From assembly GCF_025526975.1 (NCBI RefSeq), contig NW_026515687.1:124001-188000 (forward strand): DNA of 64,000 bases, in the 5' to 3' direction. Origin of the DNA: Fimicolochytrium jonesii. Taxonomy: Eukaryota. Positions 1 to 19,085 of the stretch are shown here, piece by piece. The notes below the pieces were generated by a model that had not been told where the DNA came from, searched no databases, and worked only from the letters and a program-made list of their open reading frames with translations. The translations under genes and the position numbers were made by a program. Numbering within the stretch: position 1 is the stretch's first letter; every line of letters begins with the position of its first letter.

Positions 1-479
1 TGGGGCCGGCGGGGAGGACTTAAAGGCATCGGAAGCAGAATTCAAGGTCTCCTGGTTTTCTGCGACTAGATGCGCTGGGTGAATCCCCTTTCCGTTCTTA
101 CGACAGAAATCACCCTGGAGACCAGATTTTGACGTACCTGTGTCGAGAGCGATGAATTAGGTCAATGTTGATGCAAAATGAGAGTGCAATGTTGTGAACA
201 GAGTGTGCGCTTAGCCTGTTTTGTTCTAAGATCTGTGCAGTCGAGTGACAAAGAGAGAGTATATATATGATACATTTGATGCTGCGGTTCGGTTGAGGCG
301 CGCTTCGGTTCAGCGGAAATGGATTTATATGGATGAGGAGAGGTTGTGCTTACTAAGCTTCTTTTCTTTCACTTGAGCGAAAATATAAAGATACAAGCTG
401 GTAGCACAAAGCTCATGAAGTCAATACCAAGGTAAGACCAGCTGGCTCTGCCAAAAATACTTTTCGAGGTCCATGCAAA

Positions 480-853
480 GCAAACATTTCTCCTGAGAAG
501 CAAACATAATGCCAGCGTGCGCAACAAAATGCAACCTTTTTCAGCCAGTTCGCACGAAACGCAAACATTTTGCCCGAGGATGTTTGAAACGCAAACATTT
601 CTTCCAAGGATCAAACATCTATTGAACCTTTCTTCCGAAGAGCAAACATTTCGCGTGTGGCGTGCATGAAATTCAAACATTTCCCCAAGGAAAAGATGTC
701 AAAAATTGTCAGCGTGCCCGCTGCGCCACATAGCGTTCCCGTCACGTGCGCTTTTACGTGTTTTATCAAACATTTCCGCAAGGAAAAGATGTCAAAAACT
801 GTCAGGGTGTCCCCTGCGCCACATAGCGTTCCCGTCACGTGCGCTTTTACGTT
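480..853. repeat. Reiterated CAAACATTT motif cluster including a ~93-bp two-copy tandem repeat (674-766, 767-~853)
   Basis: CAAACAT(TT) recurs about 8 times between 480 and 775. The unit caaacatttcc..aaggaaaagatgtcaaaaa..ctgcgccacatagcgttcccgtcacgtgcgcttttacg is present twice with few mismatches. Confidence 0.85.
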
Positions 854-1092
854 TTTTTCTTTCAACGGCGGTGGGAACTGACCATTCAGGATTTCGGCTA
901 TAGGAGCGACAGAGGAGCAGATACAAATACAGCTATACCACATTGGGACGGGGGGGATTGACAGAGGGAATACATGGTGGAATAAAGAGGGTGGAATATC
1001 GAGGGGAATATAGGCAGGGAATATGGCCGGTTAATTATGGGCGGGCTCCTAAACTGATAATTCACAGCAAGCTTGAGAAGGAGGGAGAAACG

Positions 1093-2189
1093 CTACAAAA
1101 GCCCATACGCCAAGGGTCCTTGACGATGGATTTCGGCCAAACCGTCCCAGAGGGGGCCGCCAAACGGGTTTGGGGACCGGGGGCTACCGTGCTCGTCAAG
1201 CAAGTCCGTGGGAAAGTAGAAGGTCAGCCGTTTGGAGCATGAGCTGTATTCGGGAAGCTTTTGGCCCTCATCCAAGCAAAAGAGGACGTAGATTCGCGTC
1301 GGGAATACGTGAGAACCCGTGATGGCATGGACGAAATTGTCCAGCGTCTGGTCCTTTGGAACTTCTTTCAATGCACATCGGGAGAGCTGCGCGGCGGTGT
1401 TGACGAGATCCCGGCTCATTGCAGATTTGCACGTGAATTCCAGATGGCGGGAAATCTCATCATACATGAGCAGTACAGGCGCGAATAACGACATGACGAC
1501 TCCGCATGGGACCGAATGGAGGATTCCGACAAATTCCACGCCCATCCCCTTTACCATGTCGGCCATCGGGCCATCCCTACTTGCGTACAGCACGTGGTAT
1601 TCGATCGAACGCGAATGGCGGTCGGCGTTTTCCCAGAACGTCCAGAGATCATTCCAGCTGCGGCGAAGCGGCTGCGGACGGTGTGCATCATTCACGTAAG
1701 TTGGAACATGAATAGGCACACCCAGTCGCTCAACGCATGCCCTGAGTCTACCGACGGAAGAACGGACTCGGTAAACCGTTCACTGAGGGCGGTCAAGAAC
1801 ACTGCAACGTCGAGTACATACCTGGCCTCCCATGTTTCACGCTTTGTTTTGCGGTCGATCCCCTTGTCACGCATACCCAACAGTACCTCGCCGAGTTCCT
1901 TGTCGAAGAGCTTCACCGTTTCCGCGGTGATCTGCCAATAATGGGGGAGGTGGATACCCGAGCAATTGTGGCTGTGGTGGAGGTAGTTTACAAAAGCAGG
2001 ATGGAGCGTTGTCGGAACGATTCGAGCCCAGCGATAGGCACATACAATGACCCGCCCAAGCATCTCGTACATGCCGTCCAAGCGATACGCCAAGTTGTGA
2101 GGCGATGCCACCGGTAGCAGCATATCTTCGCCTTCAAACCACGGCGTATCCTCCTTGCCGAAGTAGTGATCGATCAGGGCATGAAACTT
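1093..2189 (-). pseudogene. HECT-domain-like protein, 5'-truncated at the telomeric tract; one intron (1672-1721)
   Basis: Joining ORFs 1692..2123 and 1093..1719 through a GT..CAG intron keeps frame (SDW|PLRRSW). Motifs resemble HECT ligases: FHALIDHYF..PWFEG..LLP, YEMLGRVIVCAY..LHPAFVNYL, FVHAITGSHVFP..LPEYSSCSKRL (candidate catalytic Cys). The upstream frame runs into the telomeric repeat with no further ATG. Confidence 0.55.
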
Positions 2190-2239
2190 GGGGTTAGGGT
2201 TAGGATTAGGGTTAGGGTTAGGATTAGGGTTAGGGTTAC
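2188..2239 (+). repeat. Short interstitial telomeric repeat tract
   Basis: TTGGGG TTAGGG TTAGGA TTAGGG TTAGGG TTAGGA TTAGGG TTAGGG TTAC. TTAGGG is the canonical telomere repeat of many fungi. Confidence 0.92.
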
Positions 2240-2479
2240 AAGACCCCCTGGGTTGGGTTTTATTATTGGGTTGCCTGGAACCCTAGGGACTTAGAAATTT
2301 TCGAGTTTCTTGGTTTTGGGCAGTGTTCTACAGTTCAGATTCCAGGTTCCAAGGGGTAGGGTGCCGGGGGTGTGAGCTTTCTAGACGCCGACGAACTCTA
2401 TGGTAGTATACGTGGTGATGATGGAAAATTTATCTGTCATCATATATGTAAACGGAGCGGATAGTCACAACCAGCAATC

Positions 2480-3385
2480 ATGCGCGCGCTTGTCATCTCT
2501 TTGATCATCTTCGTGATCATTTTACTCATTGGTATCTTTGGTTGGACACAGGGTTGGTTCAAGGGCATCTTCAAGTCCGCTGCCAAGGCAGGATCAGGAT
2601 CAGGATCAGTATCTGGCACAGGATCAGGTACCAACACGCCAACACAGTGTCTCAAAACAGATACATTCCCCGTCACCGCCGTCGGCAAAACGGGCCAAGG
2701 AAGCTGCCCAGCCCCCCAGACTGGCACCGTCACAGCCATGTGTCAAGCGGATGGAACCTTCGGCCCAACCGATACATCTGGATGCGTCACCCCGAACACC
2801 ATCTCGGCTGGTGGCTATTGTGTTAACAATGGTGTCAACGTGTGGGACGAATGGCAATCAACGACGGGCAGGGCAAAATGCAACACTACAAACAACATGT
2901 GGACCGTGGAGTGCCCTGCTGGTACGGTGAAGACGAGCCTGTTCACCATGAGCAACACAGGTAGGGGCGGGGAAGGTGCGGTGTGTAGCCCAAAGGTTCA
3001 GGATGCCACAGCATGTCTGGGCGGGAAGCCAGGGATTTGGGACGAGCAAGCTCTGCCTCCGTCTGGAAAAGCCGCCTGCGACAAGACGGCCAACGTATAC
3101 GTCGGCGGCTGTCCTGCAGGAACGGAGAAGCATACCCTATTCAAGATGACGTATGGCGGTTACGGCGGGGAGGCTGCTCTTTGCGACGCTGGTACCGCCG
3201 CAGGTGGGGTGTGTTTGTATGGGGTACCTAACAGATGGGACGGTATCACAGAAACGTATGGAAACGCGAGCTGCGATAAAACTACAAATATCTATAGCGT
3301 AACCTGCCCTCCCGGGACTACCAAGATTCCAATCTACAACATGACGAATTCGAACCGTGGCGGTGAAGGGGCTATATGTGTCTGA
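2480..3385 (+). CDS. Type II membrane-anchored Cys-rich protein with a HormR/HRM-like domain and three ~60-aa 4-Cys repeats
   Basis: N-terminal hydrophobic helix, then a GS linker. FPVTAVGKTGQGSCP..GTVTAMCQADGTFGPTDTSGC resembles the hormone-receptor domain. Three repeats follow: C..WD..G.A.C..T.N.Y/W...CP.GT.K..L/I(F/Y).M....GGE.A.C. Confidence 0.8.
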   Translation: MRALVISLIIFVIILLIGIFGWTQGWFKGIFKSAAKAGSGSGSVSGTGSGTNTPTQCLKTDTFPVTAVGKTGQGSCPAPQTGTVTAMCQADGTFGPTDTSGCVTPNTISAGGYCVNNGVNVWDEWQSTTGRAKCNTTNNMWTVECPAGTVKTSLFTMSNTGRGGEGAVCSPKVQDATACLGGKPGIWDEQALPPSGKAACDKTANVYVGGCPAGTEKHTLFKMTYGGYGGEAALCDAGTAAGGVCLYGVPNRWDGITETYGNASCDKTTNIYSVTCPPGTTKIPIYNMTNSNRGGEGAICV

Positions 3386-3542
3386 AGTCCATGAATAATA
3401 GTCATGTGACCTGCCGCGTTTCAGTATGAAATTTTTTTTGGGAATCCAAAAAAAGATTTGCACCAAACGCGTATCCTCTCTTTACCAAAAAGGCGCGAGG
3501 ACACAAAGCGCGCCCCTTATACGCTCGCGAACACTACGAGTA

Positions 3543-4283
3543 ATGGCCGACCTAGAATCGCAGTACATACGAGACCGATACCTCGACAATGATCCAATGG
3601 ACCTGATAACTGAAGACGAATGCCGAGAGATCTGCTCATATATCCATCACACGCATGATGCGGACGTCGTGAGAGCCCTTCTCCGTCGTCACCCGGATCT
3701 ATGTCGGTGGCCAGAGTTCCCCTACTGCTCTCCGGTCCACTGCTGCATCCTGAACCTTCTCGTTCAAGCTGGGCTCGATCACCAGCATGCCATGACGTCC
3801 CTTAACAGAGCCGTCGTTTGGGAAGATTGGAGGGCTCTTGCTAGCCTCGCCAAGGTGAAACGCTTACCAACGACAACACTATTCGGAATCTTCCTCTGGG
3901 AAAGGGCGCTGCGGCATATTTCTCAGGACACCTTGAACTTCATGGTTACGCTTGACGATCCGTCCCCTTTCCTGCCGTCGTGTAGCTATGTGATACAGCA
4001 GAAGGCGATCACTTACGAAAACGCTGTCTTCGTTAAACCGTGGTCTGCAGAGGAAGCTGCGCTTGATATAGGAGACGTACCACTTAGTGTAGAGGATGGA
4101 TGCCGCGATGTGGATGAGTCTGATACACCTTCTATGATCAGGAGCCTTATCCGCCTTTGTCCTGACATCCTTCATGATCTCAAGCTGACCCCGCGATATC
4201 GTAGACCGTCGGTCATAGAGACACTCTCTGCTCTAGGTTGTTCCGGGCTGACGTATGAGGGCCACATCTGTGTAGACTTGTAG
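3543..4283 (+). CDS. Hypothetical protein, possibly degenerate ankyrin-like helical repeats
   Basis: Intronless 246-codon ORF from ATG 3543 (MADLESQY..). HDADVVRALLRRHPD and CILNLLVQAGLD are weakly ankyrin-like. Confidence 0.55.
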   Translation: MADLESQYIRDRYLDNDPMDLITEDECREICSYIHHTHDADVVRALLRRHPDLCRWPEFPYCSPVHCCILNLLVQAGLDHQHAMTSLNRAVVWEDWRALASLAKVKRLPTTTLFGIFLWERALRHISQDTLNFMVTLDDPSPFLPSCSYVIQQKAITYENAVFVKPWSAEEAALDIGDVPLSVEDGCRDVDESDTPSMIRSLIRLCPDILHDLKLTPRYRRPSVIETLSALGCSGLTYEGHICVDL

Positions 4284-4377
4284 CGTTTGCCTCTAGGGGG
4301 AAGGCAAAGCAGATGTAGATGGTATATAATGCAGGCCCTTTGTGCTTCTTACGCCTTACACAATCCGATACCTAAAC

Positions 4378-5046
4378 ATGAAAGACGAGGATCCCCCAGC
4401 GTACAGTCTGGACCAGCTCAATACTCGTCCTGATGCTACCTCAACCCGATTGAGCTCAGATGAGCCGGAGACGGGCAACGCGAGAACTGATCTGAGCAGA
4501 GCGGCCGCAGCTGGGCGTAAACGTACCGCGTTGTTGTGCCTGCTGTTCGTTGCTATCGCGTGCTTTTCGGCGATTGCCCTTGTCATATCTTCTCGAGCGT
4601 TGAACGGAAGGGTAGACGACTATATTGCCGCCCAGCGATCCGCTTTGGAGCGGAGACTTGACACTGAGTATGACCATTGTGGTTGCCTCCTGCTTTCTTT
4701 AGGAGACTATGACACACCGGTCAACGTAAGCGTATCATGCAGTACGGCCGTACGAAGCACCGTAACAAGATATCGCGGCCAACCTATTCCCCGCACGGAC
4801 ATAGAACAATCATGCTATTGGCCAAAGAGAGTGGATGAGCTAGTCTACTTCGGTTCTCGCGCGTCATTCCTAGAGTACGAGGAAGATTGGAGATGGAGCC
4901 GTGCACATTCGCCGGACACCGGCTGGGGACTGATCAAGGAACCAGGGCTCAAGACGCTCTTTGCTATTGGGGTTATAGCAGCTGTGCTCAATCTCTTCAC
5001 ATTCTGTTGTGTTCTATGTAGCTTAGCTCATCAAACAACTGGTTAA
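4378..5046 (+). CDS. Hypothetical two-TM membrane protein with an N-terminal PPxY motif
   Basis: MKDEDPPAYS start, two hydrophobic stretches (ALLCLLFVAIACFSAIALVIS; TLFAIGVIAAVLNLFTFCCVLC) flanking a Cys-containing loop. Confidence 0.65.
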   Translation: MKDEDPPAYSLDQLNTRPDATSTRLSSDEPETGNARTDLSRAAAAGRKRTALLCLLFVAIACFSAIALVISSRALNGRVDDYIAAQRSALERRLDTEYDHCGCLLLSLGDYDTPVNVSVSCSTAVRSTVTRYRGQPIPRTDIEQSCYWPKRVDELVYFGSRASFLEYEEDWRWSRAHSPDTGWGLIKEPGLKTLFAIGVIAAVLNLFTFCCVLCSLAHQTTG

Positions 5047-5353
5047 ACGGTTACACACACGATGGTGGCGCTGCGAGGCTCAAGCCTGTGGATTAGCCCC
5101 GGGCGTTCATTTGTGCGCTCACAGCTGTACTCGCATGTGGGGCTAGCAGCCGCGGACCTCAACATTCGCGTTGCGATACGCAAATGTGCCAAGACATAGA
5201 AACCTCTACTGTCGCAACCGTTGTTGCTTCCTTCCTCAAGCAACCGTTGTCTTGGCACGTTTAGATAAGAAGAAGGCCCGAGACGTTCCCCGCCCCAAAG
5301 TGAAAGGAAACCCGCAACGCAACACCAACCTTTCATCAACCTACCGCAGCATC

Positions 5354-5869
5354 ATGCCTGAGAAGAAAACCCTGTGGCACATCGCCCCCGACCACGCTAA
5401 GAGTTCAATCTCGACTGGTGGTCTTCGCTCCGGAAAGAAGTAAGACGTGTAACTGTATGTATCAAACTGTCTTGCACGCTAATCATCGCCGATGTGCTGC
5501 AGGGGAATGTACGGTCCAGCCGTCTATGCCACCGACAGCGTCCAATCTTCTAGCCGCAAAGCTCTCTGTGGAAACAAGCGTGTCGCTGTCAAGATTGAGG
5601 CCGATATGGGCAAGATGGCTGTGAGCACACGTGCGGACCCTAAAGGCTATCATCGCAACGCCGGATACGATAGCCTCCACGCTCCCTCCGGAACGGACGT
5701 ACGCAATTCCGAGTACGCCATCTACAACACAAAGAAGATTACCTCCTGGTCTGTGCACGAGCCGAAGAAAAATGGCGGCGGCTACAAGAAGACCGAGTGG
5801 GGCGGTACCAAGTTGGTTCAAGGGCCGGACGGGCGTACATCTCAGTATAGTCACTGGCAAGCCAAGTAG
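5354..5869 (+). CDS. H-Y-E (PARP/Gig2-like) ADP-ribosyltransferase; exons 5354-5439 and 5503-5869
   Basis: The 63-nt intron 5440-5502 has a GTAAGA donor, GCTAAT branch site and CTGCAG acceptor. The spliced product MPEKKTLWH..SISTGGLRSGKKGMYGPAVYATDS..SRKA..GYDSLHAP..NSEYAIYN shows the H, Y and E catalytic positions. Confidence 0.75.
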
Positions 5870-5889
5870 TGTAGAATACCTACGGAAGC

Positions 5890-6553
5890 ATGGATACTTG
5901 TGCTCTACCATACTTGTGCTCTACATGTACTTTACGAGCCGAGCGTCATGGCAGCTTCAGATATAGTAAACATTGTTTTGATCCTACTCCCGAGATCTAC
6001 AGCATCCACCAGCTTTGACTCTTCTGCGTTGTGGGGTGAGATATTGTTTTCTCAACGCTCAAGAAAGGCATCAGGCGGCCCTTCAAAGCCCTTGATAGTT
6101 ACATGTCACGTGAGGCAACGATTGTCTTCAAGCCGCTTGGTGAGCACGATACTGCTCTGTTACGGGAGCTCGATGCCAAATCTGAGGTTGCCCTCTACAT
6201 TGATAAGCTACGAGCGCAGATAGGGAAATCCGCAAGACAGGACAAAGCCGCCTATCGTGTGACACTCTATTGAGAGCTGCCGTGCCATGACGGACAGACC
6301 GTGTTACGTAATCGGAGACTCATAGCAGAGAAGTTGGAGCGAATCACGGCTTCCCTAGCGGAGCAACCAATCAGCCTTGATAATCTGAAGTTGTATGGAA
6401 TAGTGGGAAAACAGTTCCTACTGTACTTATCCGACGTTGATCGGCGCAGTGCCCCTTTCTCGTCATTGCTCAGTATCAGGAGGACATCAACGCGGAACAA
6501 GCACAGTTCCTTAAAAGGGTCATACAGCGGCTGGCTTTCGAGAAAAGTGTGTA
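5890..6553 (+). pseudogene. Decayed ORF of unknown function
   Basis: One reading frame from ATG 5890 is interrupted by three TGA codons (6016, 6037, 6271). A probable frameshift near 6445 leads into ..PFLVIAQYQEDINAEQAQFLKRVIQRLAFEKSV*. There is a 16-bp tandem duplication at 5894-5924. Confidence 0.4.
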
Positions 6554-6603
6554 AAGGGGGTAACCTCCTCTCTCAGTTGCCTCCGTGGCGGTTCCGCAAC
6601 ATT

Positions 6604-7014
6604 ATGTTTCAACAGGACGTACTGCGACACGTCTTTACACTGACAGACACCGATACGCTACACATCGTGCGCTTATCATGTCGTCTTGTCAAAGATCTGA
6701 TAGCCAGTGTGATCAGAGCACGTTTGATCAGGCTCGCTTTGCGGCGATGGAAAAGGAAGCTAATGCAATGCGAAGGTACAGTGTTCAGCCCGGCTGATGT
6801 TGGAATCGTAGGATGGCCGTTTGAGAAGGACATGTACAAATCCTACTCCTTTGACGTCGATAAGTTGACCAAACCAACGGGAGCGCACGTGCCACGTTTC
6901 TGGAACGGTGGCCTCATTTTGAAGGAGTACTATATGACATACGCGCCTCCTTTCAAGGTGGACATGACGGATGGCGAGTTCATCGTTGGGGTGACTGAAA
7001 AGGGTCTACGATAG
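6604..7014 (+). CDS. Small protein with an N-terminal F-box-like motif
   Basis: MFQQDVLRHVFTLTDTDTLHIVRLSCRLVKDLI matches the F-box pattern (D/E)VLxxIFxxLDxxxLxxxRLxCR. Confidence 0.55.
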   Translation: MFQQDVLRHVFTLTDTDTLHIVRLSCRLVKDLIASVIRARLIRLALRRWKRKLMQCEGTVFSPADVGIVGWPFEKDMYKSYSFDVDKLTKPTGAHVPRFWNGGLILKEYYMTYAPPFKVDMTDGEFIVGVTEKGLR

Positions 7015-7213
7015 TATCAACGCCGGGGGACAGCTCTTCGTCACTTGCTCTCTCCTCAGAGATGCTTATATAGATCCTTTGGGTTTACTGCTCCTCGTCA
7101 AACTGCCGTGGATACTTTTGAAGGCCTTGTATAGAGGCTGCTTGTATGTACATTCACTTTCATAACTTTGAATAAGCAAAGCCAGTTCATGTGACATGCG
7201 TAAGCAAAGTAAG

Positions 7214-8073
7214 TTACTCCACTGCCATACGCTTCTTTGCGAGCTCAACGTATTTGGCGTTGATCTCAAACGCAAGAAATCTGCAGCCGGGAAGCCTAGA
7301 ACAAGCCACCATCTCTGTCCCTGCCCCTGCAAAGGGAATGAGGACATTCGTTTCTATGCCTTCCTCAGTATGCATAGCGCTCTTTACAAGACGCTCGGTC
7401 AGTTGCAATGGCTTCTGAGAAGGGTGGGCAACGCCTTCCGATTTGCCGCAAGCCCCGCTCAAAGCTGAGACTTTGATGACGTCACGTGGTAACGCACCGT
7501 CCTCATGGATATTGTAGGCGGTTGCGACATTCCGCGAGTTTATACGCCCAGTAGAATCAGCAGCTCGGACCCTGCCAGGGCTGTACTTTTTGTACTCCTC
7601 AGTATAGGCTTCTCGCACTAGATCACGGTTAAACCTTGACCCTGGAAAGCGACACAAAAGGATGCTTTCATGCGATCGCTGAAAGCTCTTTGCCTTTGGA
7701 TTTGTCTTGTTCGTATCGTGCCAAACAAGCCAGTCCACTTTCCACGTGATGGCTTTGTTACCATGTATCCGGGCGTAGATCAGAGCCAACGTGGTGGACA
7801 GACCATAGATGTAACATGTACCTGTCCTCTTGAGAACACGGTGGCATTGGAGGATCCAATCCTTGCACCAAGCGAGATACTCATCCTCTCGCCTCTTATC
7901 ACTATCGTCCCAAAGTCCTTCCCAAAGTTGTACGGCGGGTCACATATGATGAGATCAGCTGACTCGGCCTGAACCGAATGGAATGCCTTTACGCAATCAG
8001 TGTGATGGACTGTATTGTCATAGGCGTACTTGACTACTACAGGTAGAGATGCAGGTACAGGAGTCTCTGCCAT
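7214..8073 (-). pseudogene. Beta-class N6-adenine/N4-cytosine DNA methyltransferase with a 1-bp frameshift near 7908
   Basis: ADLIICDPPYNFGKDFG, then after a shift DSDK..EYLAWCKDWILQCHRVLKRTGTCYIYG..VWHDTNK..FQRSHESIL..HPSQKPLQLTERLV..VLIPFAGAGT..FEINAKYVELA. The catalytic DPPY precedes the FxGxG SAM motif, which is the beta order. Confidence 0.9.
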
Positions 8074-8089
8074 GTCTGATATCAGGTTC

Positions 8090-8734
8090 CTACTTTACCC
8101 TAATCCGCGCTGGGTTGTATACGTCAATAGGAGGATCCCTACTTTTTATATCAGTCTCAACGCGGACGCATATCTGCTGCTGAGTTCGTGTATCGTCTTC
8201 CCTCCTCGCCTCCGTGACAATGACTGATTGCCTTGCGAACCATCTGAGAACTCTCCATAGTTTCAACCCCACATAGGATGTGATCCCAACTACAAGAGGC
8301 CCGTTGATGAGGACGAATGTGATGGCAAATCCCTTGATCAAGCCGCTGCTCCACACGCATTCAAAGTGTTCATCCAAGGCCACCCCAAAGGAGGCCAGCT
8401 GAAAGACGAATGTAAAGGATGCCACCACGAGGAGGCCGAGTATGACAAACGCAGCAGCAAATTGAAGGGCAGGCCACTTTTCATACGGCGCAGAATTGAC
8501 CAACGCAATAGAGGCGAGTGCAGAAACAAATATGGTAAGGTCAGCGACTCCAGAGGCGAACGGGGCGCATTCTTGCGCAGTCTTGGCGCGGATATGTTGA
8601 GCAATCGACTTGCGGGCATGAAGTAAAGCGTAACCGGTAAGGCCAATAGAGAGGGCGAGACGTAGTGTAGCAACGATGAAAGGCCAGTTAGGTCTAATGA
8701 CTTGGGCTTTGAGAGGTTTGTATGGGGTAGCCAT
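8090..8734 (-). CDS. Hypothetical four-TM membrane protein
   Basis: Intronless ORF (MATPYKPL.., alternative ATG at 8806) with four hydrophobic segments. Confidence 0.6.
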   Translation of the reverse strand: MATPYKPLKAQVIRPNWPFIVATLRLALSIGLTGYALLHARKSIAQHIRAKTAQECAPFASGVADLTIFVSALASIALVNSAPYEKWPALQFAAAFVILGLLVVASFTFVFQLASFGVALDEHFECVWSSGLIKGFAITFVLINGPLVVGITSYVGLKLWRVLRWFARQSVIVTEARREDDTRTQQQICVRVETDIKSRDPPIDVYNPARIRVK

Positions 8735-8847
8735 TTTGTGTGGGATGTTGGCAAGTAGGTAACTGCTTCTGGCTCTGCGATCGAGACGTATGTATGCTAG
8801 CACCATATCGGCTCCGTATCACGTGATTGCGCTCAATTGCGCTGGCG

Positions 8848-8863
8848 AGTTTATCGATAAACT
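8848..8863. promoter_or_regulatory. Palindromic motif AGTTTATCGATAAACT (copy 1 of TTTATCGATAAA)
   Basis: Perfect 16-bp palindrome in the short gap upstream of the minus-strand 4-TM gene. The same core occurs at 9924 and 12016. Confidence 0.5.
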
Positions 8864-9855
8864 TACGCAAGGAAGAGTGGCTGCCTGGTAGTTATCCTGG
8901 CACGACACACTGAACAAAGAGTTATTGAGTCGGCACATCGGCGACAATGGGCGTGGCCGCAGTTTAGCGCCACATTTACTCGATCCGTCAAACATACTGG
9001 GCACATGCCTATGGTAGGGGCCTCCTCCGCCTCCTCGTTGATTGCCAAGAGGGCAGCGGCCACGTCACTATTCTGACCCGGGTCCCTGTTTCTGTCTGTC
9101 ATCGCCAGGTTATCCAGATCGGTCAAGAGATCTTCCACCGGGTATCGTCTGTGAGTGTATGAAGGAGGTTTCCTCCAAAGTTTTCCTTGAAACATGGTCA
9201 GCTGTATGGAGATACCTTGGGTGTGCACACCATAGTACACAATGCGATCAAGCTGGACGACAGCGGCTAGCTTGTCTCCTGGGCCTACTAGGTCACCTCT
9301 TGGATCTGTGACCTTTGAGGGTATGAAATCTTCAATGATGTCGCTGGTGTCTCCATCTCGCATAGCAAACTTGAAACAATCGTGTGCTTCCTGAGAGCCA
9401 GGGGGTTTGTAAGGTTGCAGGATGATACTGATTTCGGGAGGGTACTCCTCCAACTCGTTTCTTTTGAAGATGCTAGTGCCGTTGAGAAGCAGGTCGGGCC
9501 GCTGTGCAGACCTTCCTTGACTCCGGATGGTCCATGTAGGATAGGCCGCGTCAATAAGAACCTTGACGCGGCGCTCGAGATCCAATAGAAATCTATGTTC
9601 GCGACTCTGTAAGACAGTCTGGGCCCTCACTTTAATCTTACCCATGGTCCTCCAGTCGGTGGTACCGAATCGGCCACCAAGAGTAGTCAAAGAGTAAGCT
9701 GGTAAAGTAAGATCTTTCAAGACAAAGGTCAGCTTTACCGCGGAGGGTCCATAGAGGACATCGTGGATGCGGCAATTCTCGAGGGTGACAAGCCGACCCA
9801 GCTGGAGACTGCTGAGATCCACAGCATCGGGTTGAAGAACTCTTAGAGCGGGCAT
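8863..9855 (-). CDS. C-terminal C3HC4 RING-finger protein with an N-terminal region resembling NCLDV ssDNA-binding OB-fold proteins
   Basis: RING: CPVCLTDRVNVALNCGHAHCRRCADSITLCSVCRARITTRQPLF. The N-terminal VLQPDAVDLSSLQLG..YPPEISIIL..FKFAMRD..LVGPGDKLAAVVQLDRIVYY..GISIQLTMFQGKL recalls gp2.5-like giant-virus SSBs. The RING is certain and the SSB call is tentative. Confidence 0.75.
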   Translation of the reverse strand: MPALRVLQPDAVDLSSLQLGRLVTLENCRIHDVLYGPSAVKLTFVLKDLTLPAYSLTTLGGRFGTTDWRTMGKIKVRAQTVLQSREHRFLLDLERRVKVLIDAAYPTWTIRSQGRSAQRPDLLLNGTSIFKRNELEEYPPEISIILQPYKPPGSQEAHDCFKFAMRDGDTSDIIEDFIPSKVTDPRGDLVGPGDKLAAVVQLDRIVYYGVHTQGISIQLTMFQGKLWRKPPSYTHRRYPVEDLLTDLDNLAMTDRNRDPGQNSDVAAALLAINEEAEEAPTIGMCPVCLTDRVNVALNCGHAHCRRCADSITLCSVCRARITTRQPLFLA

Positions 9856-9923
9856 GATTACTCCCAAAGTAGTGATCCCGAGAAGTTTTCGCACCGCATC
9901 CTGGGATACTTATAGCGGCCTTG

Positions 9924-9935
9924 TTTATCGATAAA
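9924..9935. promoter_or_regulatory. TTTATCGATAAA palindrome (copy 2) between the divergent RING and ankyrin genes
   Basis: About 70 bp from the RING ATG (9855) and about 78 bp from the ankyrin ATG (10013). Confidence 0.5.
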
Positions 9936-10012
9936 AGCATCAAATAGATGTAGATGACGAATACGTTTTGGAAGCTGTCGCCACATCCCTTTGCTCACCA
10001 TCATACAACGAT

Positions 10013-10969
10013 ATGGCTTTCCCATTCCATCTGCTCTTAGCGCATTGCAAAGGAGAAGTCGTGGTGAATCTTCTCTGCATATCCAGTGTCTATAGAATGG
10101 TTACCCACGCCGACGTGCTAAGGGCCTACCCAACCGGTCAAGATATCGCCAAGTTGCCGAGGCCTCTATGGACAACGTACATCCGCCTCGGCATGGCAGA
10201 CATGCAGAACGCGATAGAGAAGGCAGCGGAACATGCTCATCTGGATGCGATGAAGCTTCTTCTCCGGCCTTGTCACGATGCAACTTACGCCACCCTTTTG
10301 AATAAAGTTGGTCCCCTTGAGTGCTTGGACGATGATGGTGAGATTGAAACCATTCTCGAGTCTCCGCTCGCACACGCTAGCCGCTTGGGTAATCTGGATA
10401 TGATCAAGCACCTCATATCCATTGGAGCCGACGTGAACAGTGACCCGTATGCATTCCGGGACGCATGCACTTATGATCACTTGAACGCTGTCGAGTTTTT
10501 TGTGCGCATCGGCGTCAATGATGACGCAAAGCGATCGGGATTCCTATTCGCTTGTTTTGAAGGACATCTGGACGTCATACAACATCTCGTAAACAAGGGC
10601 TGCCGGGTAGACGCCGAGTGCATTGGCTGGGCAGCACAACGCGGGAAGTTCAGCAAGAAGAATTCCCTTCAGATCATCAAGTATCTCGTTTCTTTAGGGG
10701 ATTGTTTAGCCTTTGATGACATCCTAACAGACGCCATAGAAAGTGAAGCCGATCTGGAGACGATCAAGTATCTAGTATCGCTTGGCGCACAAAAAGACGA
10801 GATGGGCCTTATTGCTGCATGCGCGATGGGTGATACTGAGAAAGCTCAATTCTTCGCACTGCGTATACGGAGGGCCGAGACGCTAGTGGAAGCTGCGAGG
10901 CTGGCGCGTTCTCAGAATTGTGATGATATACATGATTACTGCATGAAGGTAGCGCGCCTGTTTGCGTGA
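10013..10969 (+). CDS. Ankyrin-repeat protein (giant-virus style)
   Basis: Repeats AAEHAHLDAMKLLL, ASRLGNLDMIKHLISIGADV, ACTYDHLNAVEFFV, ACFEGHLDVIQHLVNKG, IIKYLVSLG, TIKYLVSLGA. Intronless. Confidence 0.88.
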   Translation: MAFPFHLLLAHCKGEVVVNLLCISSVYRMVTHADVLRAYPTGQDIAKLPRPLWTTYIRLGMADMQNAIEKAAEHAHLDAMKLLLRPCHDATYATLLNKVGPLECLDDDGEIETILESPLAHASRLGNLDMIKHLISIGADVNSDPYAFRDACTYDHLNAVEFFVRIGVNDDAKRSGFLFACFEGHLDVIQHLVNKGCRVDAECIGWAAQRGKFSKKNSLQIIKYLVSLGDCLAFDDILTDAIESEADLETIKYLVSLGAQKDEMGLIAACAMGDTEKAQFFALRIRRAETLVEAARLARSQNCDDIHDYCMKVARLFA

Positions 10970-10994
10970 GAAAGTATCCGATTCTTTTGTACCA

Positions 10995-12005
10995 ATGCTT
11001 CCACAGAACATGATTCTTTCCGGAACGCTACGAGACCGGCTACTGGGTTGTTTCATCGGCGGCATCGTTGGTGACTCCTTTGGTGCTGCATACGAGTTCA
11101 AAGAACGTGACAGCTATGAAGTGTCTCCCAACATGGAAACCACTGTATTCAATATGCCACCGGGTTCATTTACTGATGATTCGTCCATGATGCTATGTCT
11201 AGCTGCATCACTTATTGAAACGGGTACCTTTTCCCCTACAGATCAGATGGAAAGATATGCACGGTGGCGAAAAGAAGGTTACATGTCCTCAGACGAAAAG
11301 AAAGGATGTTTTGATATCGGGGTCACAACGAGCAGGGCGATCGCACGTTTCCTTTTCAACCAAGAGCTCCGCGAGCGGAAAAGAGAAGCCGCAGAAGCCC
11401 CACCTTTGACCGAGTATCATGGCCTGTCTGACGAGAATGATAGTGGTAACGGCGGGATCATGCGACTAGCGCCGGTACCCATCTTCTATCATAGGGACAT
11501 AGGAAGGGCCGGCTACTATTCTGCACTCTCCTCTAAAGTAACTCATGCGTCTCCAGAGTGCATCGAAGCAGCGGGTGTACTCGGCAAAATCATAGCAAGC
11601 CTTCTACAAGGAGTTTCAAAGGTACACGCTGTAGTAGAGCTACCTGCATCTCTCGTAAGCGGATTGACGTGTGAAAAGGTCATACACATCTGCCAAGGTA
11701 CATTTCTCCGGAAGCAGCGAGACGAAATCAAAACAAGTGGGTATGTCATCGACACGTTGGAAGCAGCGCTGTAGGCTTTCTCTGTGACAGATTTCTATGA
11801 GCAAGGAATGCTTCTTCTGGCCGGTATGGGCTGCGATGCGGACACCGTGTGCGCCGTATATGGCCAGATCGCAGGCGCCTATAATGGTTATGAGGCCATT
11901 CCGAAACGGTGGGTAAACGCGCTCCAGCGAATGTCACTGATAGCGGAGATTGCGACAAGATTGCTTGAAGTTACCGAAGTGATGTCTACGGCGTTGGGGC
12001 GGTGA
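10995..12005 (+). pseudogene. ADP-ribosylglycohydrolase (DraG/ARH family) with a single in-frame TAG at 11772-11774
   Basis: GDSFGAAYEF, FTDDSSMMLCLA, GCFDIGVTT, SGNGGIMRLAP, SKVTH, GYVIDTLEAAL*AF and DADTVCAVYGQIAGAYNG..IPKRW all lie in one frame. The stop replaces the Trp typical of LEAALW (TGG>TAG). Confidence 0.9.
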
Positions 12006-12015
12006 GCGGTTTGAG

Positions 12016-12027
12016 TTTATCGATAAA
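12016..12027. promoter_or_regulatory. TTTATCGATAAA palindrome (copy 3)
   Basis: Intergenic, about 90 bp upstream of ATG 12118. Confidence 0.5.
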
Positions 12028-12117
12028 GAGGGGGTGTATGCATACGTATAGCAATGTGTCGCGTCGCTTTGCAATCATCCTCGCACCTACTCACATCAAC
12101 AAGATCCCCTTGCAGCT

Positions 12118-12675
12118 ATGTCCGGCGATGAAAGCATCGAATGGAACATTCAGAGCATCGCTGCAGCCCGAGGGCGGTTGTTGGAAAGTACCGGACCAAC
12201 GCACATATTGTTTGCGAAACTCCTTTGGCGAACTGCGGAGATCAGTTTGATGAGATGCCAGCTTCGTTCCGGATGCATTCGTTGGACAAAGGCCGACGGG
12301 GGAGAAACAATCATGGCTATATCAGCACGTGCCCTGCAGCAAACTTACGAGAGGATTCGGACCGATGTGGGCATTGCAAAGGAAAACGACATGGAGTCGG
12401 AGGTGGTGTCTCAGGATAAGCAGGATGATACATACGACATCGAGAAGCAACTCTATTGCCTGACAGAGTTCCTGAACAGCCTCTTTGCAGGCGACTGTTT
12501 CGCATTGGTTGGCAAGACCTTTCTCGCTGACACCGTGGCAGAATGGTACAGCAAGTTGACCTTCATAGTCGCTACCATGGTGCGTTCCGTTATTGTGTAC
12601 CAAGTCCTAGAACTGGGCTTTCCCCGCAAAGCGGACGACCAGGAAAAGCTCGCGCGCAGAGCGATGTCCGAATAA
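12118..12675 (+). CDS. Hypothetical protein, 3' end truncated by retrotransposon pol sequence
   Basis: Intronless ORF. Its last codons (from ~12661) are the antisense of RT thumb sequence (FVQGYSDIA). Confidence 0.5.
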   Translation: MSGDESIEWNIQSIAAARGRLLESTGPTHILFAKLLWRTAEISLMRCQLRSGCIRWTKADGGETIMAISARALQQTYERIRTDVGIAKENDMESEVVSQDKQDDTYDIEKQLYCLTEFLNSLFAGDCFALVGKTFLADTVAEWYSKLTFIVATMVRSVIVYQVLELGFPRKADDQEKLARRAMSE

Positions 12676-14360
12676 CCTTGCACGAAGTCGAGGAAGTAGT
12701 TCGTGAACCCGAGAAAGCTTTGAACTCCTTTTGTTGACTTTGGAGTAGCCCAATCCTTAATAGCTTGGATTTTCGAGGGCGCGATGCAAACACCATGTCT
12801 TCACAATATGTCCACACCATTCGAGTTCTTCTTTAGCCCATATGCACTTTGAAGGCTTGATGAAAAGGGCGTGTTCTTCAAGTTTCTTCAGGATACAATC
12901 GACGTGTTCCCGATGATCGGCTAAGGTCTTGGAGAAAATGAAAATGTCGTCCAGGTAGGTAGCAAGGAAATCGTCGTAATCTTTATGGAAGATCTTATTC
13001 ATAGGACGTTGAAATGCAGCAGGTGCGTTGGTAAGTCTGAACGGCATGACCAAATACTCGAAATGTCCGAAGCGAGTTCGTATTGCCGTTTTTTCTCGAT
13101 CTTGTTTTCGTATAAGAGGACAATGGTATGCTTCTCGAATATCGATAAGCGTAAACCATTTACAACCTTGAATGCGATCCCTCATCTCACGGATATTGGG
13201 TAAAGGAGTGCAATCTTTCTTGGTGACAGCGTTGAGACCTCGGTAGTCCCAACAGATGCGTAATCCCCCATCTTTCTTTTTCGCAAAGACGACACTAGCT
13301 CCCCAGGGACTTGAGGAGTGTTGTATCCATCGTTTTTCGAGCATCGAACTGATTTGTTTCTTATGTTCAGCGAGTTCTTCTTTGTTCATGTGCCGAAGAG
13401 GTTGCCAAACGGGGTCAGCACCTTCAGTGAGTTCGATCTTGAACTTATCTTCTCGCGATCAGGGGGTAAACCTTTCGGTTCCTTGAAGAGCGTATTGACG
13501 TATTTATTTAGGATATCTTTAAGATGTCCTGGATTTCCTTTAAGCTCTTGAGGAGCATCCAGTATTTCGTTAAGAGCGAGGCGACAGACCGTGTCTTTTT
13601 CAAACTTGTTCCGTCGCCAAGCCTTATCGAATCGCTTAGAAGTCATTTCTGTGACTTGAGGATTGCAAAGGGCATTGGCTTGAGCGAATCAAGAAACATA
13701 ATGAGGTGCAGCTTGTAGAGGACGTGTATCCACAGGTTTAATGATCCGAACAGGTCGAACAGGTCTTTTATCGTAGACCGGATCTTGTTGTACATCGAAG
13801 TAAGGGTTGTTGTGTTTCGGGATATATTCGACATCTTCCCAGTTTCTTGAAGTTCTTTTGCATTTGATGGTGACAGACTGCGGTGCGTTTGGTATAGGGC
13901 CATGATTGGTCCAGCAAAGGATAGGTAAGGTACTCATCGAGAATTGTTCAGCGTAATTAAAGAAACGTCAAAAAGGCGTTCCAATAATAGCGTCGTAAGC
14001 CAGATTACTGACTAGCCAGGAGAGTTGTCCAACTAAGAAAAGCGACTGAGATTCAAGATCCCATAGATCTAACTTTTCCGAAACGACCGTGTTGAGAATC
14101 ATGTAGGATTCTTTGTCGGCCAGCCATATCTGCTTTGGTTCAATACCTTTCTTGGAAAATTTGTGCTTTTCGACGAATGTCTTGTCAAGAAATAACCCAG
14201 TTGCGCTGCTATCGAAAAGAACACGAGCAAACTTGTTTCCGATGCGACAATGAGAGACCCAGAGTCCAGCAGACAGTGGTTCGAAGGCAGGTTTGTCGGT
14301 AGGATCGTATGTTGTAGGCCGAGCAGAGCTACCGAGGGGCTCTATCGACCTTGGAAAAAA
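12661..14360 (-). pseudogene. pol (aspartic protease + reverse transcriptase), frameshifted
   Basis: RVLFDSSATGLFLD (DSG mutated to DSS), SSPWGASVVFAKKKDGGLRICWDYRGLN, VMPFRLTNAPAAFQR, YLDDIFIFS, KPSKC, VQSFLGFTNYF. Several frameshifts. Confidence 0.92.
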
Positions 14361-15679
14361 CTCAAAGATTGATTTGTAGTAGTATTCGTAGTATTCGCAG
14401 AGTTGACGGCGTCATCGAGAATTTCCGTAATGCGTGACCCAGCATCAACCTGCTTGGCTGAACCTTGTTGTTGATTAGGTTGGCGACTGCGCTGCGGAGT
14501 CTGAGCGCCACGACCGCGCTGTCGAAAACCACCGCGTCGGTTCTGGGTTTGCGAGCCTTGCTGTTGATTTTCAGGATTTGACCAGCATTCAACTCTCCAA
14601 TGTCCCATTTTGTTACAAAGGGGACAAGGAGTCGTTGGACGTTGACGAGGAACATGAGTAGTTTGCCATTGTCCACGTCGACGAAAGGGTTGTCGACACT
14701 GGTAGGGAACTTGACCTGCAGTGAGACGGCTCACTCCAGGGGGATAGTATGACGTACCGAGGGCATTGAGCCCAAAGGTCATATCATCTAAGTCTTGCTC
14801 GAATTCCGTAATTTGAGGATTGGTGTAAGGGGCGAATCGTCCGCCACAACCACCGCCACGACTACCTCGACCGCGGCTGGCTCCATGGCCTCCACAAGCA
14901 CTCGATGCCGAGGCAATTGGACGAGGCGTATTGGCTTGGTTGCCATCAGTGAACCCGTGAGCCACATGAGCACGACGAGCTGCAGTGATAGCTTGATCGA
15001 GAGTGATAGCGGTGTTGATATTGGTAGTGCCCGAGACTTCGAAGTTCGTCACGGCTTCAGCAAGATAATGACCGATTACCGTATTCTTGAGAAGACCGGC
15101 CTTGAAGTATCGAATCTGATTGATAAGGGGAATGGTGCCTTGAGTGTTATCGAGACGATGAGCGGCTTCAAGCTCATTATTGGTGTCCCGAAACTCCTTG
15201 ATATATTTTTCGAGAGAGTCACCAAGCTTAAGACCGGAGAGCTTGAGCTCAATAGTATTACGCAAGTTGCGAGGATAAAAGTGAGGGACAAGAGCCGTTT
15301 CGAAAGCTGTCCAACTTGCGGGAGCGCCAGAGGTGTAAGTCGTATTGTACCACTCAAGAGCAGTACCCTTGAGATAGGTAGTGAGCGTAGGGGCATACTC
15401 TGCCATAGTAAAGGGTATGGCGTTGGCAGCTCCAGTACCGTCTGATCCAGCTTGTACAGCCGGGACAGTAAGAGACTCGAGAAAGTTGTGGTGAGACGTA
15501 ACGAACTCTTCGATCTTTTTGGCAGCTTTGGCGCCATCGTATTCGACGAGCTTGTTCTTGCGAGCGTCCATAAGAAGTCTGAAACGTTCGGCTTGTTGGA
15601 CATCCTGCGTAACAGCACGCTCCCAAGTAGCGAAAGCAGCTGCGACAGCCGCAACGATAGCTTGAGTTTGTTGGTCCAT
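14342..15679 (-). CDS. Gag (capsid + CCHC zinc knuckle)
   Basis: YLKGTALEWY..SWTAFETALVPHF capsid motif, CPLCNKMGHWRVEC knuckle and RG-rich segments. Confidence 0.88.
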   Translation of the reverse strand: MDQQTQAIVAAVAAAFATWERAVTQDVQQAERFRLLMDARKNKLVEYDGAKAAKKIEEFVTSHHNFLESLTVPAVQAGSDGTGAANAIPFTMAEYAPTLTTYLKGTALEWYNTTYTSGAPASWTAFETALVPHFYPRNLRNTIELKLSGLKLGDSLEKYIKEFRDTNNELEAAHRLDNTQGTIPLINQIRYFKAGLLKNTVIGHYLAEAVTNFEVSGTTNINTAITLDQAITAARRAHVAHGFTDGNQANTPRPIASASSACGGHGASRGRGSRGGGCGGRFAPYTNPQITEFEQDLDDMTFGLNALGTSYYPPGVSRLTAGQVPYQCRQPFRRRGQWQTTHVPRQRPTTPCPLCNKMGHWRVECWSNPENQQQGSQTQNRRGGFRQRGRGAQTPQRSRQPNQQQGSAKQVDAGSRITEILDDAVNSANTTNTTTNQSLSFFQGR

Positions 15680-15760
15680 TCTTGCTTGTGAACGAGTGTA
15701 AGGGGGACGTCCGGTAGAGGGGCAACGTTGACGAGGAATGTCTTGGTGATGCTAGCGGTA

Positions 15761-15773
15761 GGTGGTGCTACCA
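15761..15773 (-). other. Primer-binding site, tRNA-iMet-like
   Basis: TGGTAGCACC immediately follows the LTR end ..TTACA and is close to the Ty1/Ty3 iMet PBS TGGTAGCGCC. Confidence 0.65.
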
Positions 15774-16276
15774 TGTAACGTCAGAGGAAACGTAGATGAT
15801 ATTGGGCTTTTCTGAGAGGGCTGAGAGCAGTGTATTGTAGTGAAGAAAAAAGTAAGAAGCTCTTCGCAGCGGCCGCTCGGCTGACAGCTTTATATATGCG
15901 CTGCCAGTGGGGCTTGCGTGGCTTTAGTGAGGCTTGGCGCCTTATGTAATGTATCACCGAGAGCTCGGGTGGCCAGCCCGGGTCTCGGATGAAGTAGAAG
16001 TAAAGAGATATAATATGAAATACAAGTGGAGATGAGATATCCCCGACACTGAGAGCAGTGTATTGTAGTGAAGAAAAAAGTAAGAAGCTCTTCGCAGCGC
16101 CCGCTTGACTGACAGCCTTATATATGGGCTCTCAGTGGGGCTTGCGTGGCTTCAGTGAGGCTGGGCGCCTTATGTAATGTATCACCGAGAACCCGGGTGG
16201 CCAGCCCGGGTCTTGGATCAAGTAGAAGTAAAGAGATATAATATGAAATACAAGTGAAGATGAGTTATCCCCGACA
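15774..16276 (-). repeat. 5' LTR (15774-16048) plus a tandem partial LTR copy (16049-16276)
   Basis: The minus strand starts TGTCGGGGAT and ends CGTTACA. The 228-bp block 15821-16048 is repeated at 16049-16276 with about 15 substitutions, and each copy has a TATATAA. Confidence 0.88.
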
Positions 16277-18573: not shown

Positions 18574-18737
18574 ATCTCTGGTGACTGTAGCCGTAGTCCC
18601 TTCAACAGCATCATTGTACAGCAGTAGTCAAAATGCCGTACAAACATCCGGCACAAAATGGAGGGGCTTGCCATTGACAGTGGAATGACAGGAGGGGGTG
18701 AGGAGGCCCACGCCACGCTCTGCGACTGCTTGCGCGA

Positions 18738-19085
18738 GTGACCTTGGGACGACAAACCCCCACAAACGGACATGGCGAACGTGTTATCGACGAACAAGCT
18801 CTTATTGTTCCAGCCACCGACAGGCATAACGCAAGCAATGCCGTAGAAACCTCCGCATCTTTCAACGCCGTCTGGACCGCCACCATGAATACCGACATCG
18901 GGGCCTCCAGCTTTCGCGCCGGAGGGGCCACCCACCTCGCGATACTCGGTTACGACACACTGTGGATCCAACGCTGGGGTCGCTGGTCTTCAGACGCGTT
19001 CGAACGATATATCCGCACACATCCTAGCGTTCACCTCGCGGTGCGGCAGAATTCCGCTCCTATTACCCGCCCTGTTGTATACTAG
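18738..19085 (+). pseudogene. Tyrosine recombinase C-terminal fragment (DIRS/Ngaro or Crypton type)
   Basis: SSFRAGGATHLAILG..IQRWGRWSSDAFERYIR corresponds to the (H)SxRxGGAT..GRWxSxAxxxY motif. The N-terminal part is degenerate. Confidence 0.8.

What the first reader, a model, noticed from the sequence alone, without database searches (positions are those of the whole stretch)
2190..12660. Telomere-repeat-bounded, giant-virus-like gene island embedded in a chytrid-like fungal chromosome
Seen: about 12 compact, nearly intronless ORFs start right after a TTAGGG tract and end at a retrotransposon junction, unlike the intron-rich genes from 20 kb onward. Established: ankyrin repeats, F-box and RING proteins, orphan beta-class DNA MTases, ARH enzymes and gp2.5-like SSBs are typical Nucleocytoviricota accessory genes, and giant-virus relics occur in zoosporic fungi. 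Inference: this is a terminal or accessory segment of an endogenised large DNA virus (or another giant element), focused on manipulating ubiquitin and ADP-ribose signalling. No capsid, PolB or A32 ATPase is visible in the window.
Basis: partly seen in the sequence, partly recalled or inferred. Interest (0 to 1): 0.85.

Follow-up and report, generated by a model that had tools for sequence, protein, structure and literature searches.

The report
Giant-virus fragment in a fungal chromosome
A 10-kb, 11-gene piece of what is most likely a giant DNA virus sits broken and decaying in a fungal chromosome, with close relatives in soil; the telomere-like repeat beside it is probably not part of the virus, but a repeated palindrome and a DNA methylase predicted to recognise its core hint at how the virus controlled its genes.

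Summary
The island is real: 11 compact genes (84% genic) at about 2371-12660. Viral origin is well supported. The SSB-RING protein folds like ASFV CP312R (Z 13.6), and all 47 named hits among its top 50 viral-structure hits are Nucleocytoviricota. The methylase family is mostly giant-viral. Two soil metagenomes hold mostly 80-95% identical contigs along the island but not its immediate flanks, and they lack two of this copy's three gene breaks.

"Telomere-bounded" is not supported. There is one 48-bp tract, on the left only. It points into the island and reads in frame as Asn-Pro in the flanking HECT-like gene. Both island ends look like mid-gene breakpoints, not viral termini.

New here: a PARP-like ADP-ribosyltransferase with a spliceosomal intron, paired with a hydrolase; a small SSB-RING fusion family; and a palindrome, TTTATCGATAAA, found three times between genes and nowhere else in the window. 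Its TCGA core is strongly avoided in viruses carrying this methylase family (median observed/expected 0.13 against 0.74). No capsid or polymerase gene is present, so the family (Mycodnaviridae or other) is unassigned. Verdict: a new, decaying member of a known kind, with testable regulatory leads.

The parts
1096..2189 (-). Left flank: HECT-like ORF remnant, not part of the island; in frame with the repeat tract
   Evidence: Pfam HECT only weak, E 0.02-0.04, below cut-off; no PDB support; no soil coverage 668-2001
2191..2238 (+). Telomere-like tract (GGGTTA GGGTTA GGATTA)x2.7; on the minus strand it reads (Asn-Pro)8 in frame with the HECT-like ORF
   Evidence: the variant unit is a synonymous change in that frame (read from the sequence)
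2239..2370 (+). G/T-rich spacer with 8 G-runs; not found in the soil contigs; no significant hairpin
   Evidence: 0.4% of equal-sized windows have as many G-runs; fold z -0.49
2371..2423 (+). Likely left breakpoint: 53-bp piece that in a soil contig lies inside other sequence on both sides, apparently a cut gene
   Evidence: X1 record 1 (131-bp contig, 1 difference, loose ends on both sides); open frame across it read by eye
2480..3385 (+). g1: Cys-rich repeat protein with an N-terminal hydrophobic anchor, 301 aa; probably surface or secreted
   Evidence: no Pfam or NCBIfam family; annotated in the source assembly
3543..4283 (+). g2: orphan, 246 aa
   Evidence: no family; soil contigs cover it
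4378..5046 (+). g3: orphan with two hydrophobic segments, 222 aa
5354..5869 (+). g4: predicted PARP-like (H-Y-E) ADP-ribosyltransferase with one spliceosomal intron (5440-5502)
   Evidence: WH / YGPAVY / SEY motifs, GTAAGA donor, CTAAT branch, CAG acceptor, in-frame splice; Atlas: 25 of 30 hits fall in a set with PF00644 on 11% of members, score 0.93, recognition below threshold; no Pfam hit; one 95% homolog
6103..7014 (+). g5: weak F-box-like protein, broken by a stop at 6271
   Evidence: F-box E 0.05-0.08; soil contigs in both runs differ at 6271
7214..8073 (-). g6: beta-class (DPPY) orphan DNA methyltransferase, frameshifted near 7907; family predicted to recognise TCGA
   Evidence: an X1 contig has one more base at 7907
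8090..8734 (-). g7: small multi-hydrophobic-segment orphan
8850..8861 (.). Intergenic palindrome TTTATCGATAAA, copy 1 (just after the g8 stop, 116 bp before g7)
8863..9855 (-). g8: Nucleocytoviricota-type gp2.5-like single-stranded DNA-binding domain fused to a C-terminal RING finger
   Evidence: AF2 model pLDDT 57.5; VIA: ASFV CP312R Z 13.6, 195 aligned, rmsd 4.1; T7 gp2.5 Z 8.2; BFVD; Pfam RING
9924..9935 (.). Palindrome copy 2, in the divergent g8/g9 gap
10097..10969 (+). g9: ankyrin-repeat protein
   Evidence: Ank_2 E 8e-19
10995..12005 (+). g10: ADP-ribosylglycohydrolase (Tri1/DraG-like), broken by a stop at 11772-11774; TDD and DADT motifs present
12016..12027 (.). Palindrome copy 3 (10 bp after the ARH stop, 91 bp before g11)
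12118..12660 (+). g11: orphan, likely cut at its 3' end; its stop codon (12673-12675) lies in retrotransposon-derived DNA
   Evidence: the Ty3 pol frame runs on to about 12660
12660..16276 (-). Right flank: Ty3/gypsy retrotransposon with its 3' part missing (gag, RT, tandem 228-bp LTR-like repeat)

Best explanation
This is likely an internal ~10.3-kb fragment of a large DNA virus of the Nucleocytoviricota kind, integrated in a fungal (probably chytrid) chromosome, cut at both ends by later rearrangement and now decaying. Shown: viral-type SSB fold, giant-virus-type methylase, dense genes, close soil relatives along the island but not its flanks, three broken genes. Inferred mechanism of the source virus: it integrated as a provirus and used the host nucleus and spliceosome for at least some genes (intron in g4, also present as DNA in the soil contigs). 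It carried host-control genes: an ADP-ribose writer/eraser pair, a RING ligase on an ssDNA-binding domain, and ankyrin and F-box adaptors. It methylated TCGA in its own DNA, and kept TTTA-TCGA-TAAA palindromes 70-160 bp upstream of genes as probable promoter or transcript-end signals. Inferred fate: deletions fused it to a truncated Ty3 element on the right and to a HECT-like remnant on the left. The TTAGGG-like tract is either a healed-break scar of that left flank or a coding Asn-Pro repeat, not a viral end.
For: g8: ASFV CP312R Z 13.6, next T7 gp2.5 Z 8.2, among 48,161 PDB chains; 47 of the top 50 BFVD hits are named and all are Nucleocytoviricota by my knowledge of the names, best E 2e-11. 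g6: 376 relatives in IMG/VR, 37 of the best 80 named GVMAG, with capping-enzyme and Rpb2 neighbours, against 4 loci (all MAGs, 39-45%) in 185,579 prokaryote genomes (different peptide patterns). The window row lies in a 32-row clade (100/99) in which 16 rows come from viral contigs. Its closest named relative is an 88%-identical fragment in the chytrid Fimicolochytrium jonesii, a species reported to carry a giant-virus capsid gene (PMC13533422 Results). Soil run X1 has depth in all 16 bins from 2002 to 12673, 0 at 668-2001 and 0.37 or less at 12674-14674. Palindrome: 3 exact copies in the island, 0 elsewhere, 0.0002 expected. TCGA observed/expected: median 0.13 (30 of 41 loci under 0.35) at methylase loci against 0.74 (14 of 58) at Rpb2-fetched giant-virus loci. 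Of 4 complete bins, the 2 with the enzyme score 0.03 and 0.0 and the 2 without score 0.91 and 0.70.
Against: No MCP, PolB, A32 or integrase among the island genes, and the rest of the genome could not be searched. g4, g8 and g9 have no relatives in IMG/VR. The ARH's IMG/VR hits are only 26-31% and phage ARHs reach 38-41%, so that gene is of bacterial type. The exact nesting of the methylase among GVMAG rows is weakly supported (82/71, 90/89) on a long branch. GC is close to the host's. TCGA depletion in the island itself is mild (0.69, z -2.3) and was noticed post hoc. The window enzyme is only ~50% identical to the family members tested, and relatedness was not corrected. The SSB model is of moderate confidence. 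No contig bridges either junction.
Confidence: 0.78

Rival explanations
1. The source is another large nuclear DNA virus (mirusvirus- or herpes-like) that integrates at telomeric repeats, the tract being the viral or junction repeat.
For: Spliceosomal intron in g4. The tract's G-strand points into the element, as in telomere-integrated herpesviruses (recalled). The G-run-rich spacer next to it is unusual. A mirusvirus is integrated subtelomerically in Aurantiochytrium (bioRxiv 2023.06.15.545109, passages).
Against: One intron in 11 genes. No second tract. Soil contigs start at 2371 and 2427, with a loose end unlike the spacer. The tract is in frame with the flank ORF. A scan of IMG/VR for the 24-mer gave 2 hits: one a coding Pro-Asn repeat, one a short intergenic tract. 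SSB and methylase point to Nucleocytoviricota.
Confidence: 0.08
2. It is cargo of a non-viral giant transposon or linear plasmid that picked up virus-derived genes.
For: No structural genes. It lies among transposon remains, including Ulp1 (E 5e-7) and a tyrosine-recombinase-like C-terminus at 18-19 kb (by eye). Most genes have no IMG/VR relatives.
Against: No terminal repeats or shared ends in the window. The Ulp1/YR piece is 6 kb away behind a Ty3 element and is barely covered in the soil runs that hold the island. Coherent viral-type SSB, methylase and a shared motif.
Confidence: 0.09
3. It is a misassembly or co-cultured virus DNA joined to host sequence.
For: No read-level test of the junctions was possible.
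Against: Three genes are broken, and at two of these sites the soil relatives differ. The right junction truncates both partners inside reading frames. The proteins are annotated on a ~0.57-Mb assembly contig. A truncated relative sits on a 1.8-Mb chytrid contig.
Confidence: 0.04
4. It is a cluster of native fungal or bacterially acquired genes.
For: The ARH is of bacterial Tri1/DraG type; ankyrin, RING and F-box domains are common in fungi.
Against: CP312R-like SSB, giant-virus methylase family, density, private palindrome, and soil relatives without the flanks.
Confidence: 0.01

Closest known systems
Mycodnaviridae endogenous elements of zoosporic fungi (PMC13533422; abstract, Results, Discussion read)
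   Same: Gene-dense viral mosaic inside a zoosporic-fungus chromosome; eroded relics are reported in chytrids, including the species that holds the closest methylase fragment.
   Different: No MCP, PolB or integrase here, so family membership is untested. The Allomyces proviruses are ~350 kb with 9- and 34-kb inverted terminal repeats; this is a 10-kb internal piece. The main text has no occurrence of 'promoter', 'motif', 'methyltransferase' or 'ADP-ribos'.
Degraded giant-virus insertions in Acanthamoeba (PMC12210455; passages read)
   Same: Partial, non-mobile, transposon-colonised viral fragments, often near canonical or degenerate TTAGGG repeats, with no terminal repeats.
   Different: Fungal host; close relatives still detectable in soil; position relative to a chromosome end unknown here.
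Nucleocytoviricota gp2.5-like SSBs (ASFV CP312R, ranavirus P31K, EsV-1-76)
   Same: Same fold over 195 residues.
   Different: Fused to a C-terminal RING. The family has 8 other members found, 6 with the RING, none in IMG/VR.
Orphan m6A methyltransferases of giant viruses (PMC7253447, PMC8919816; passages read)
   Same: Solitary methylase with no nuclease gene recognised beside it; TCGA methylation is reported for one Phycodnaviridae MAG.
   Different: Here a beta-class family is tied to TCGA by genome-wide avoidance, and the island's three ATCGAT sites are all in the conserved intergenic palindrome.
Telomere-integrated herpesviruses (HHV-6/7) and the Aurantiochytrium mirusvirus integrant
   Same: Viral DNA next to telomere-type repeats.
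   Different: The tract is 48 bp, one-sided, internal, not shown to be viral, and possibly coding.

Membership tests
Endogenous Nucleocytoviricota fragment | Genes whose nearest relatives are Nucleocytoviricota genes | tested here: met
   SSB fold; methylase family. 2 of 11 genes are diagnostic; the rest are generic or orphan.
Endogenous Nucleocytoviricota fragment | High gene density and few introns relative to host | tested here: met
   84% genic, one intron seen in 11 genes
Endogenous Nucleocytoviricota fragment | Hallmark genes (double-jelly-roll MCP, PolB, A32, VLTF3) linked to the segment | not testable with these tools
   None in the 10-kb piece; both ends broken; no genome held; no long contig of a close relative retrieved
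Endogenous Nucleocytoviricota fragment | Physical integration in a host chromosome | tested here: inconclusive
   Contiguous with host genes in the assembly and decayed, but no reads across the junctions
Mycodnaviridae | Placement in the MY_02 clade by concatenated core-gene tree | not testable with these tools
   No core markers in the window
Mycodnaviridae | Long inverted terminal repeats and integrase | tested here: inconclusive
   None in the window, but the fragment lacks its ends
Mycodnaviridae | Zoosporic-fungus host | tested here: inconclusive
   Host genes are eukaryotic and fungal-looking; nearest named relative of g6 is from a chytrid; host not placed on a tree
Mirusviricota | HK97 capsid, portal, terminase | not testable with these tools
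   None in the fragment
Mirusviricota | Intron-rich genes (title and abstract start of PMC12768974) | tested here: inconclusive
   One canonical intron in 11 genes; no transcript data
Telomere-integrating element (HHV-6 type) | Telomeric repeat arrays carried at both ends of the element | tested here: not met
   One tract only; in frame with the flank ORF; not seen in soil contigs, although repeats were skipped and human-like reads are filtered
Starship-type giant transposon | Tyrosine-recombinase 'captain' as first gene (recalled) | tested here: not met
   First island genes have no such domain; only a YR-like C-terminal piece 6 kb outside
H-Y-E (PARP-like) ADP-ribosyltransferase | H-Y-E triad in the ART fold | tested here: inconclusive
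   Motifs in the right order across the intron; Atlas PARP lead; no Pfam or PDB sequence hit; not folded

The most novel reading that the evidence does not exclude
The fragment comes from an undescribed, still circulating soil giant virus of chytrids that runs its genes in the host nucleus by writing the host's own 'active' mark. Its TCGA adenine methylase would put 6mA on the ApT of ATCGAT in the upstream palindromes, the context that marks expressed genes in chytrids and that the host AMT1 complex is suggested to maintain from hemimethylated sites (PMC12695648, passages). An SSB-RING ligase and an ART/ARH pair would disarm DNA-damage or antiviral signalling on viral ssDNA.
Probability: 0.12. 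Interest if true: 0.8.

Novelty: new member of a known kind. Interest (0 to 1): 0.5.

Why it matters
Giant-virus relics in chytrids are already published, so the headline is not new. What this piece adds is a handle on a virus whose close relatives (mostly 80-95% DNA identity) are in present-day soil yet missing from IMG/VR searches, plus three testable leads. These are a candidate regulatory palindrome for a fungal giant virus, a predicted target (TCGA) for a widespread giant-virus methylase family, and an SSB-RING fusion with an ADP-ribose writer/eraser pair. If the methylase-palindrome link holds, it would be a case of a virus mimicking the 6mA activation mark of early-diverging fungi.

Tried and rejected
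Whole-genome search for sister copies or MCP/PolB: no genome held.

IMG/VR scans with the single methylase, the SSB-RING alignment, the ankyrin and the ART found no relatives. The ARH scan gave only 26-31% hits. The one JGI metagenome scan returned distant methylases, no close contig. No other island gene was found in the 168 loci then held, apart from generic ankyrin and ARH hits.

AF2 on a 2-sequence alignment failed (pLDDT 31). A terminal hairpin in 2239-2372 was rejected (z -0.49). CpG depletion: none. The palindrome with up to 2 mismatches is not enriched window-wide (4 seen, mean 1.7 expected); only the exact form is.

No RNA holder listed, so there is no evidence on expression either way. 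Left junction not bridged by soil contigs; repeats were skipped there. HECT identity of the left flank could not be firmed up. Foldseek against the PDB did not run. Atlas answered only for the ART. Earlier findings of this scan: nothing returned.

Literature: no paper with 'giant virus' + ADP-ribosyltransferase + ADP-ribosylglycohydrolase. None among the 20 listed of 316 for TATCGATA + virus + promoter concerned a giant virus, judged by title. 0 papers and 5 listed of 7 for the TCGA methylase question. Six of the supplementary files of PMC13533422 could not be read and may bear on gene content and on which chytrid contigs are already described.
Full report
Observation. The window holds 11 compact genes from 2480 to about 12660, covering 84% of 2371-12655. 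Pfam gives ankyrin, RING, ARH, N6_N4_Mtase and a marginal F-box; five genes (g1, g2, g3, g7, g11) match no family above cut-off in Pfam, PHROGs or NCBIfam. A sixth, at 5354-5869, has a canonical 63-nt intron whose removal joins a WH motif to YGPAVY and SEY motifs, the order of an H-Y-E ADP-ribosyltransferase. The Atlas gives a PARP lead (PF00644 on 11% of members), but Pfam and PDB sequence searches do not, so this is a prediction. Exons tested beyond 20 kb are ordinary eukaryotic genes (9 tested). GC differs little and CpG is not depleted; codon usage differs in pooled counts.

Viral origin. The N-terminal 230 residues of g8 have no Pfam match. Searches found 8 relatives, all unnamed. A model from that alignment (pLDDT 57.5) matches ASFV CP312R at Z 13.6 over 195 residues, then T7 gp2.5 at Z 8.2, among 48,161 PDB chains. 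In BFVD, 47 of the top 50 hits are named and all are Nucleocytoviricota by my knowledge of the names (this library holds only viral proteins). The methylase has close relatives at 78% and 68% in environmental data and an 88% fragment in the chytrid Fimicolochytrium jonesii. It has 376 relatives in IMG/VR, 37 of the best 80 named GVMAG (my count), against 4 loci, all MAGs, in the prokaryote genomes. In a tree of 40 rows that I picked (every third GVMAG locus, all 4 prokaryote loci, top proteins, distant outgroups), the window row groups with P0090, P0003 and P0004 (100/99) inside a 32-row clade (100/99) in which 16 rows come from viral contigs; the finer nesting is weak. The ARH is of bacterial Tri1/DraG type, a mosaic origin that is common in such viruses but not diagnostic.

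Independent existence and decay. Two soil metagenomes of one study hold contigs along the island; of 57 laid in X1, 1/5/26/25 are 99+, 95-99, 90-95 and under 90% alike. X1 has depth in all 16 bins from 2002 to 12673 (the first partly from a repeat match), none at 668-2001, and almost none at 12674-14674; small matches occur in gag and in a GGC repeat. These contigs differ at the stop in g5 and have one more base at the methylase frameshift; the ARH stop is covered but its row was not shown. They also run through the g4 intron with no joint.

Ends. On the right, the Ty3 reverse-transcriptase frame continues to about 12660 and supplies g11's stop codon, while the retrotransposon lacks its 3' part: a deletion joint. 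On the left, soil similarity starts at 2371 with a 53-bp piece that in one short contig sits inside other sequence, read by eye as one open frame: probably another mid-gene cut. The 48-bp tract is the only tandem telomere-type run in the window. Its G-strand points into the island, the polarity of a cap on the left-hand DNA, not on the island. On the minus strand it reads (Asn-Pro)8 in frame with a weak HECT-like ORF, and its variant unit is synonymous in that frame; the same 24-mer occurs in IMG/VR as a coding Pro-Asn repeat. From recall of HECT structure the repeat sits where a conserved motif should be, which favours a healed break, but HECT identity is weak. Either way the 'telomere-bounded' label is not supported. 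Viral fragments near canonical or degenerate TTAGGG are already described in Acanthamoeba (PMC12210455, passages).

A motif and a methylase target. TTTATCGATAAA occurs three times, always between genes and 69-162 bp before a start codon (two copies also follow a stop codon directly), and nowhere else in 64 kb; 0.0002 copies are expected. These are the island's only ATCGAT sites. I first noticed fewer TCGA sites in the island (23, against 41-67 in 7 overlapping host windows; observed/expected 0.69, z -2.3) and then tested the family. Loci over 15 kb carrying this methylase have median observed/expected 0.13 (30 of 41 under 0.35), against 0.74 (14 of 58) for giant-virus loci fetched by Rpb2 (p 9e-8, relatedness uncorrected, a few records shared). 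Of 25 control records 11 could be searched: of 4 complete bins, the two with the enzyme lack TCGA and the two without do not; two incomplete records are depleted without a match. The family therefore probably recognises TCGA; that the window's diverged enzyme does so is an inference. In ATCGAT the methylated A would lie in ApT, the context of 6mA that marks expressed genes in Spizellomyces (PMC12695648, passages). This suggests, without showing, a promoter-marking role.

Comparison and verdict. Giant-virus insertions in zoosporic fungi are published as Mycodnaviridae (PMC13533422; abstract, Results and Discussion read; six supplementary files unreadable), and that paper notes at least five clades of fungus-associated giant-virus polymerases. 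Without core genes this fragment cannot be assigned. It is a new, decaying member of a known kind (confidence 0.78 for a Nucleocytoviricota-type source), interest 0.5, with the methylase-palindrome link as the lead most worth following.

Noticed in passing
L005-L084 versus L169-L248 (IMG/VR loci): A widespread giant-virus beta-class methylase family (PF01555) goes with near-total TCGA avoidance (median observed/expected 0.13 against 0.74); three prokaryote-MAG loci with the enzyme (L165-L167) also have no TCGA. This predicts the family's target.
   Followed up: partly
window 16277-19400: Degenerate mobile-element remains: glycine-rich repeat ORF (16871-17827), Ulp1 protease (E 5e-7), a tyrosine-recombinase-like C-terminus (18702-19082, by eye) and 99-bp tandem repeats at 19183-19376.
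   Followed up: no
window 430-860: Array of CAAACAT words (8 copies at 481-767) and a 93-bp tandem repeat, resembling subterminal repeats of a DNA transposon downstream of the HECT-like ORF.
   Followed up: no
window 15821-16276: The Ty3 element's LTR-like end is a tandem pair of 228-bp units, 93% identical.
   Followed up: no
L249:3001-3024: A 24-bp telomere-like tract lies between genes in a 102-kb IMG/VR contig that looks like a giant virus (next to an ABC-type, eEF3-like gene by eye).
   Followed up: partly
P0090 (Fimicolochytrium jonesii annotation): A second chromosomal copy of the methylase, 88% identical over the matched part and ending mid-domain, on a 1.8-Mb contig: related viral fragments may be scattered in chytrid genomes.
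   Followed up: partly
window 3402, 7187, 8819: TCAYGTGA (E-box-like) words in three intergenic gaps of the island, one more inside the start of g5 (6106), and one copy outside (26976).
   Followed up: no
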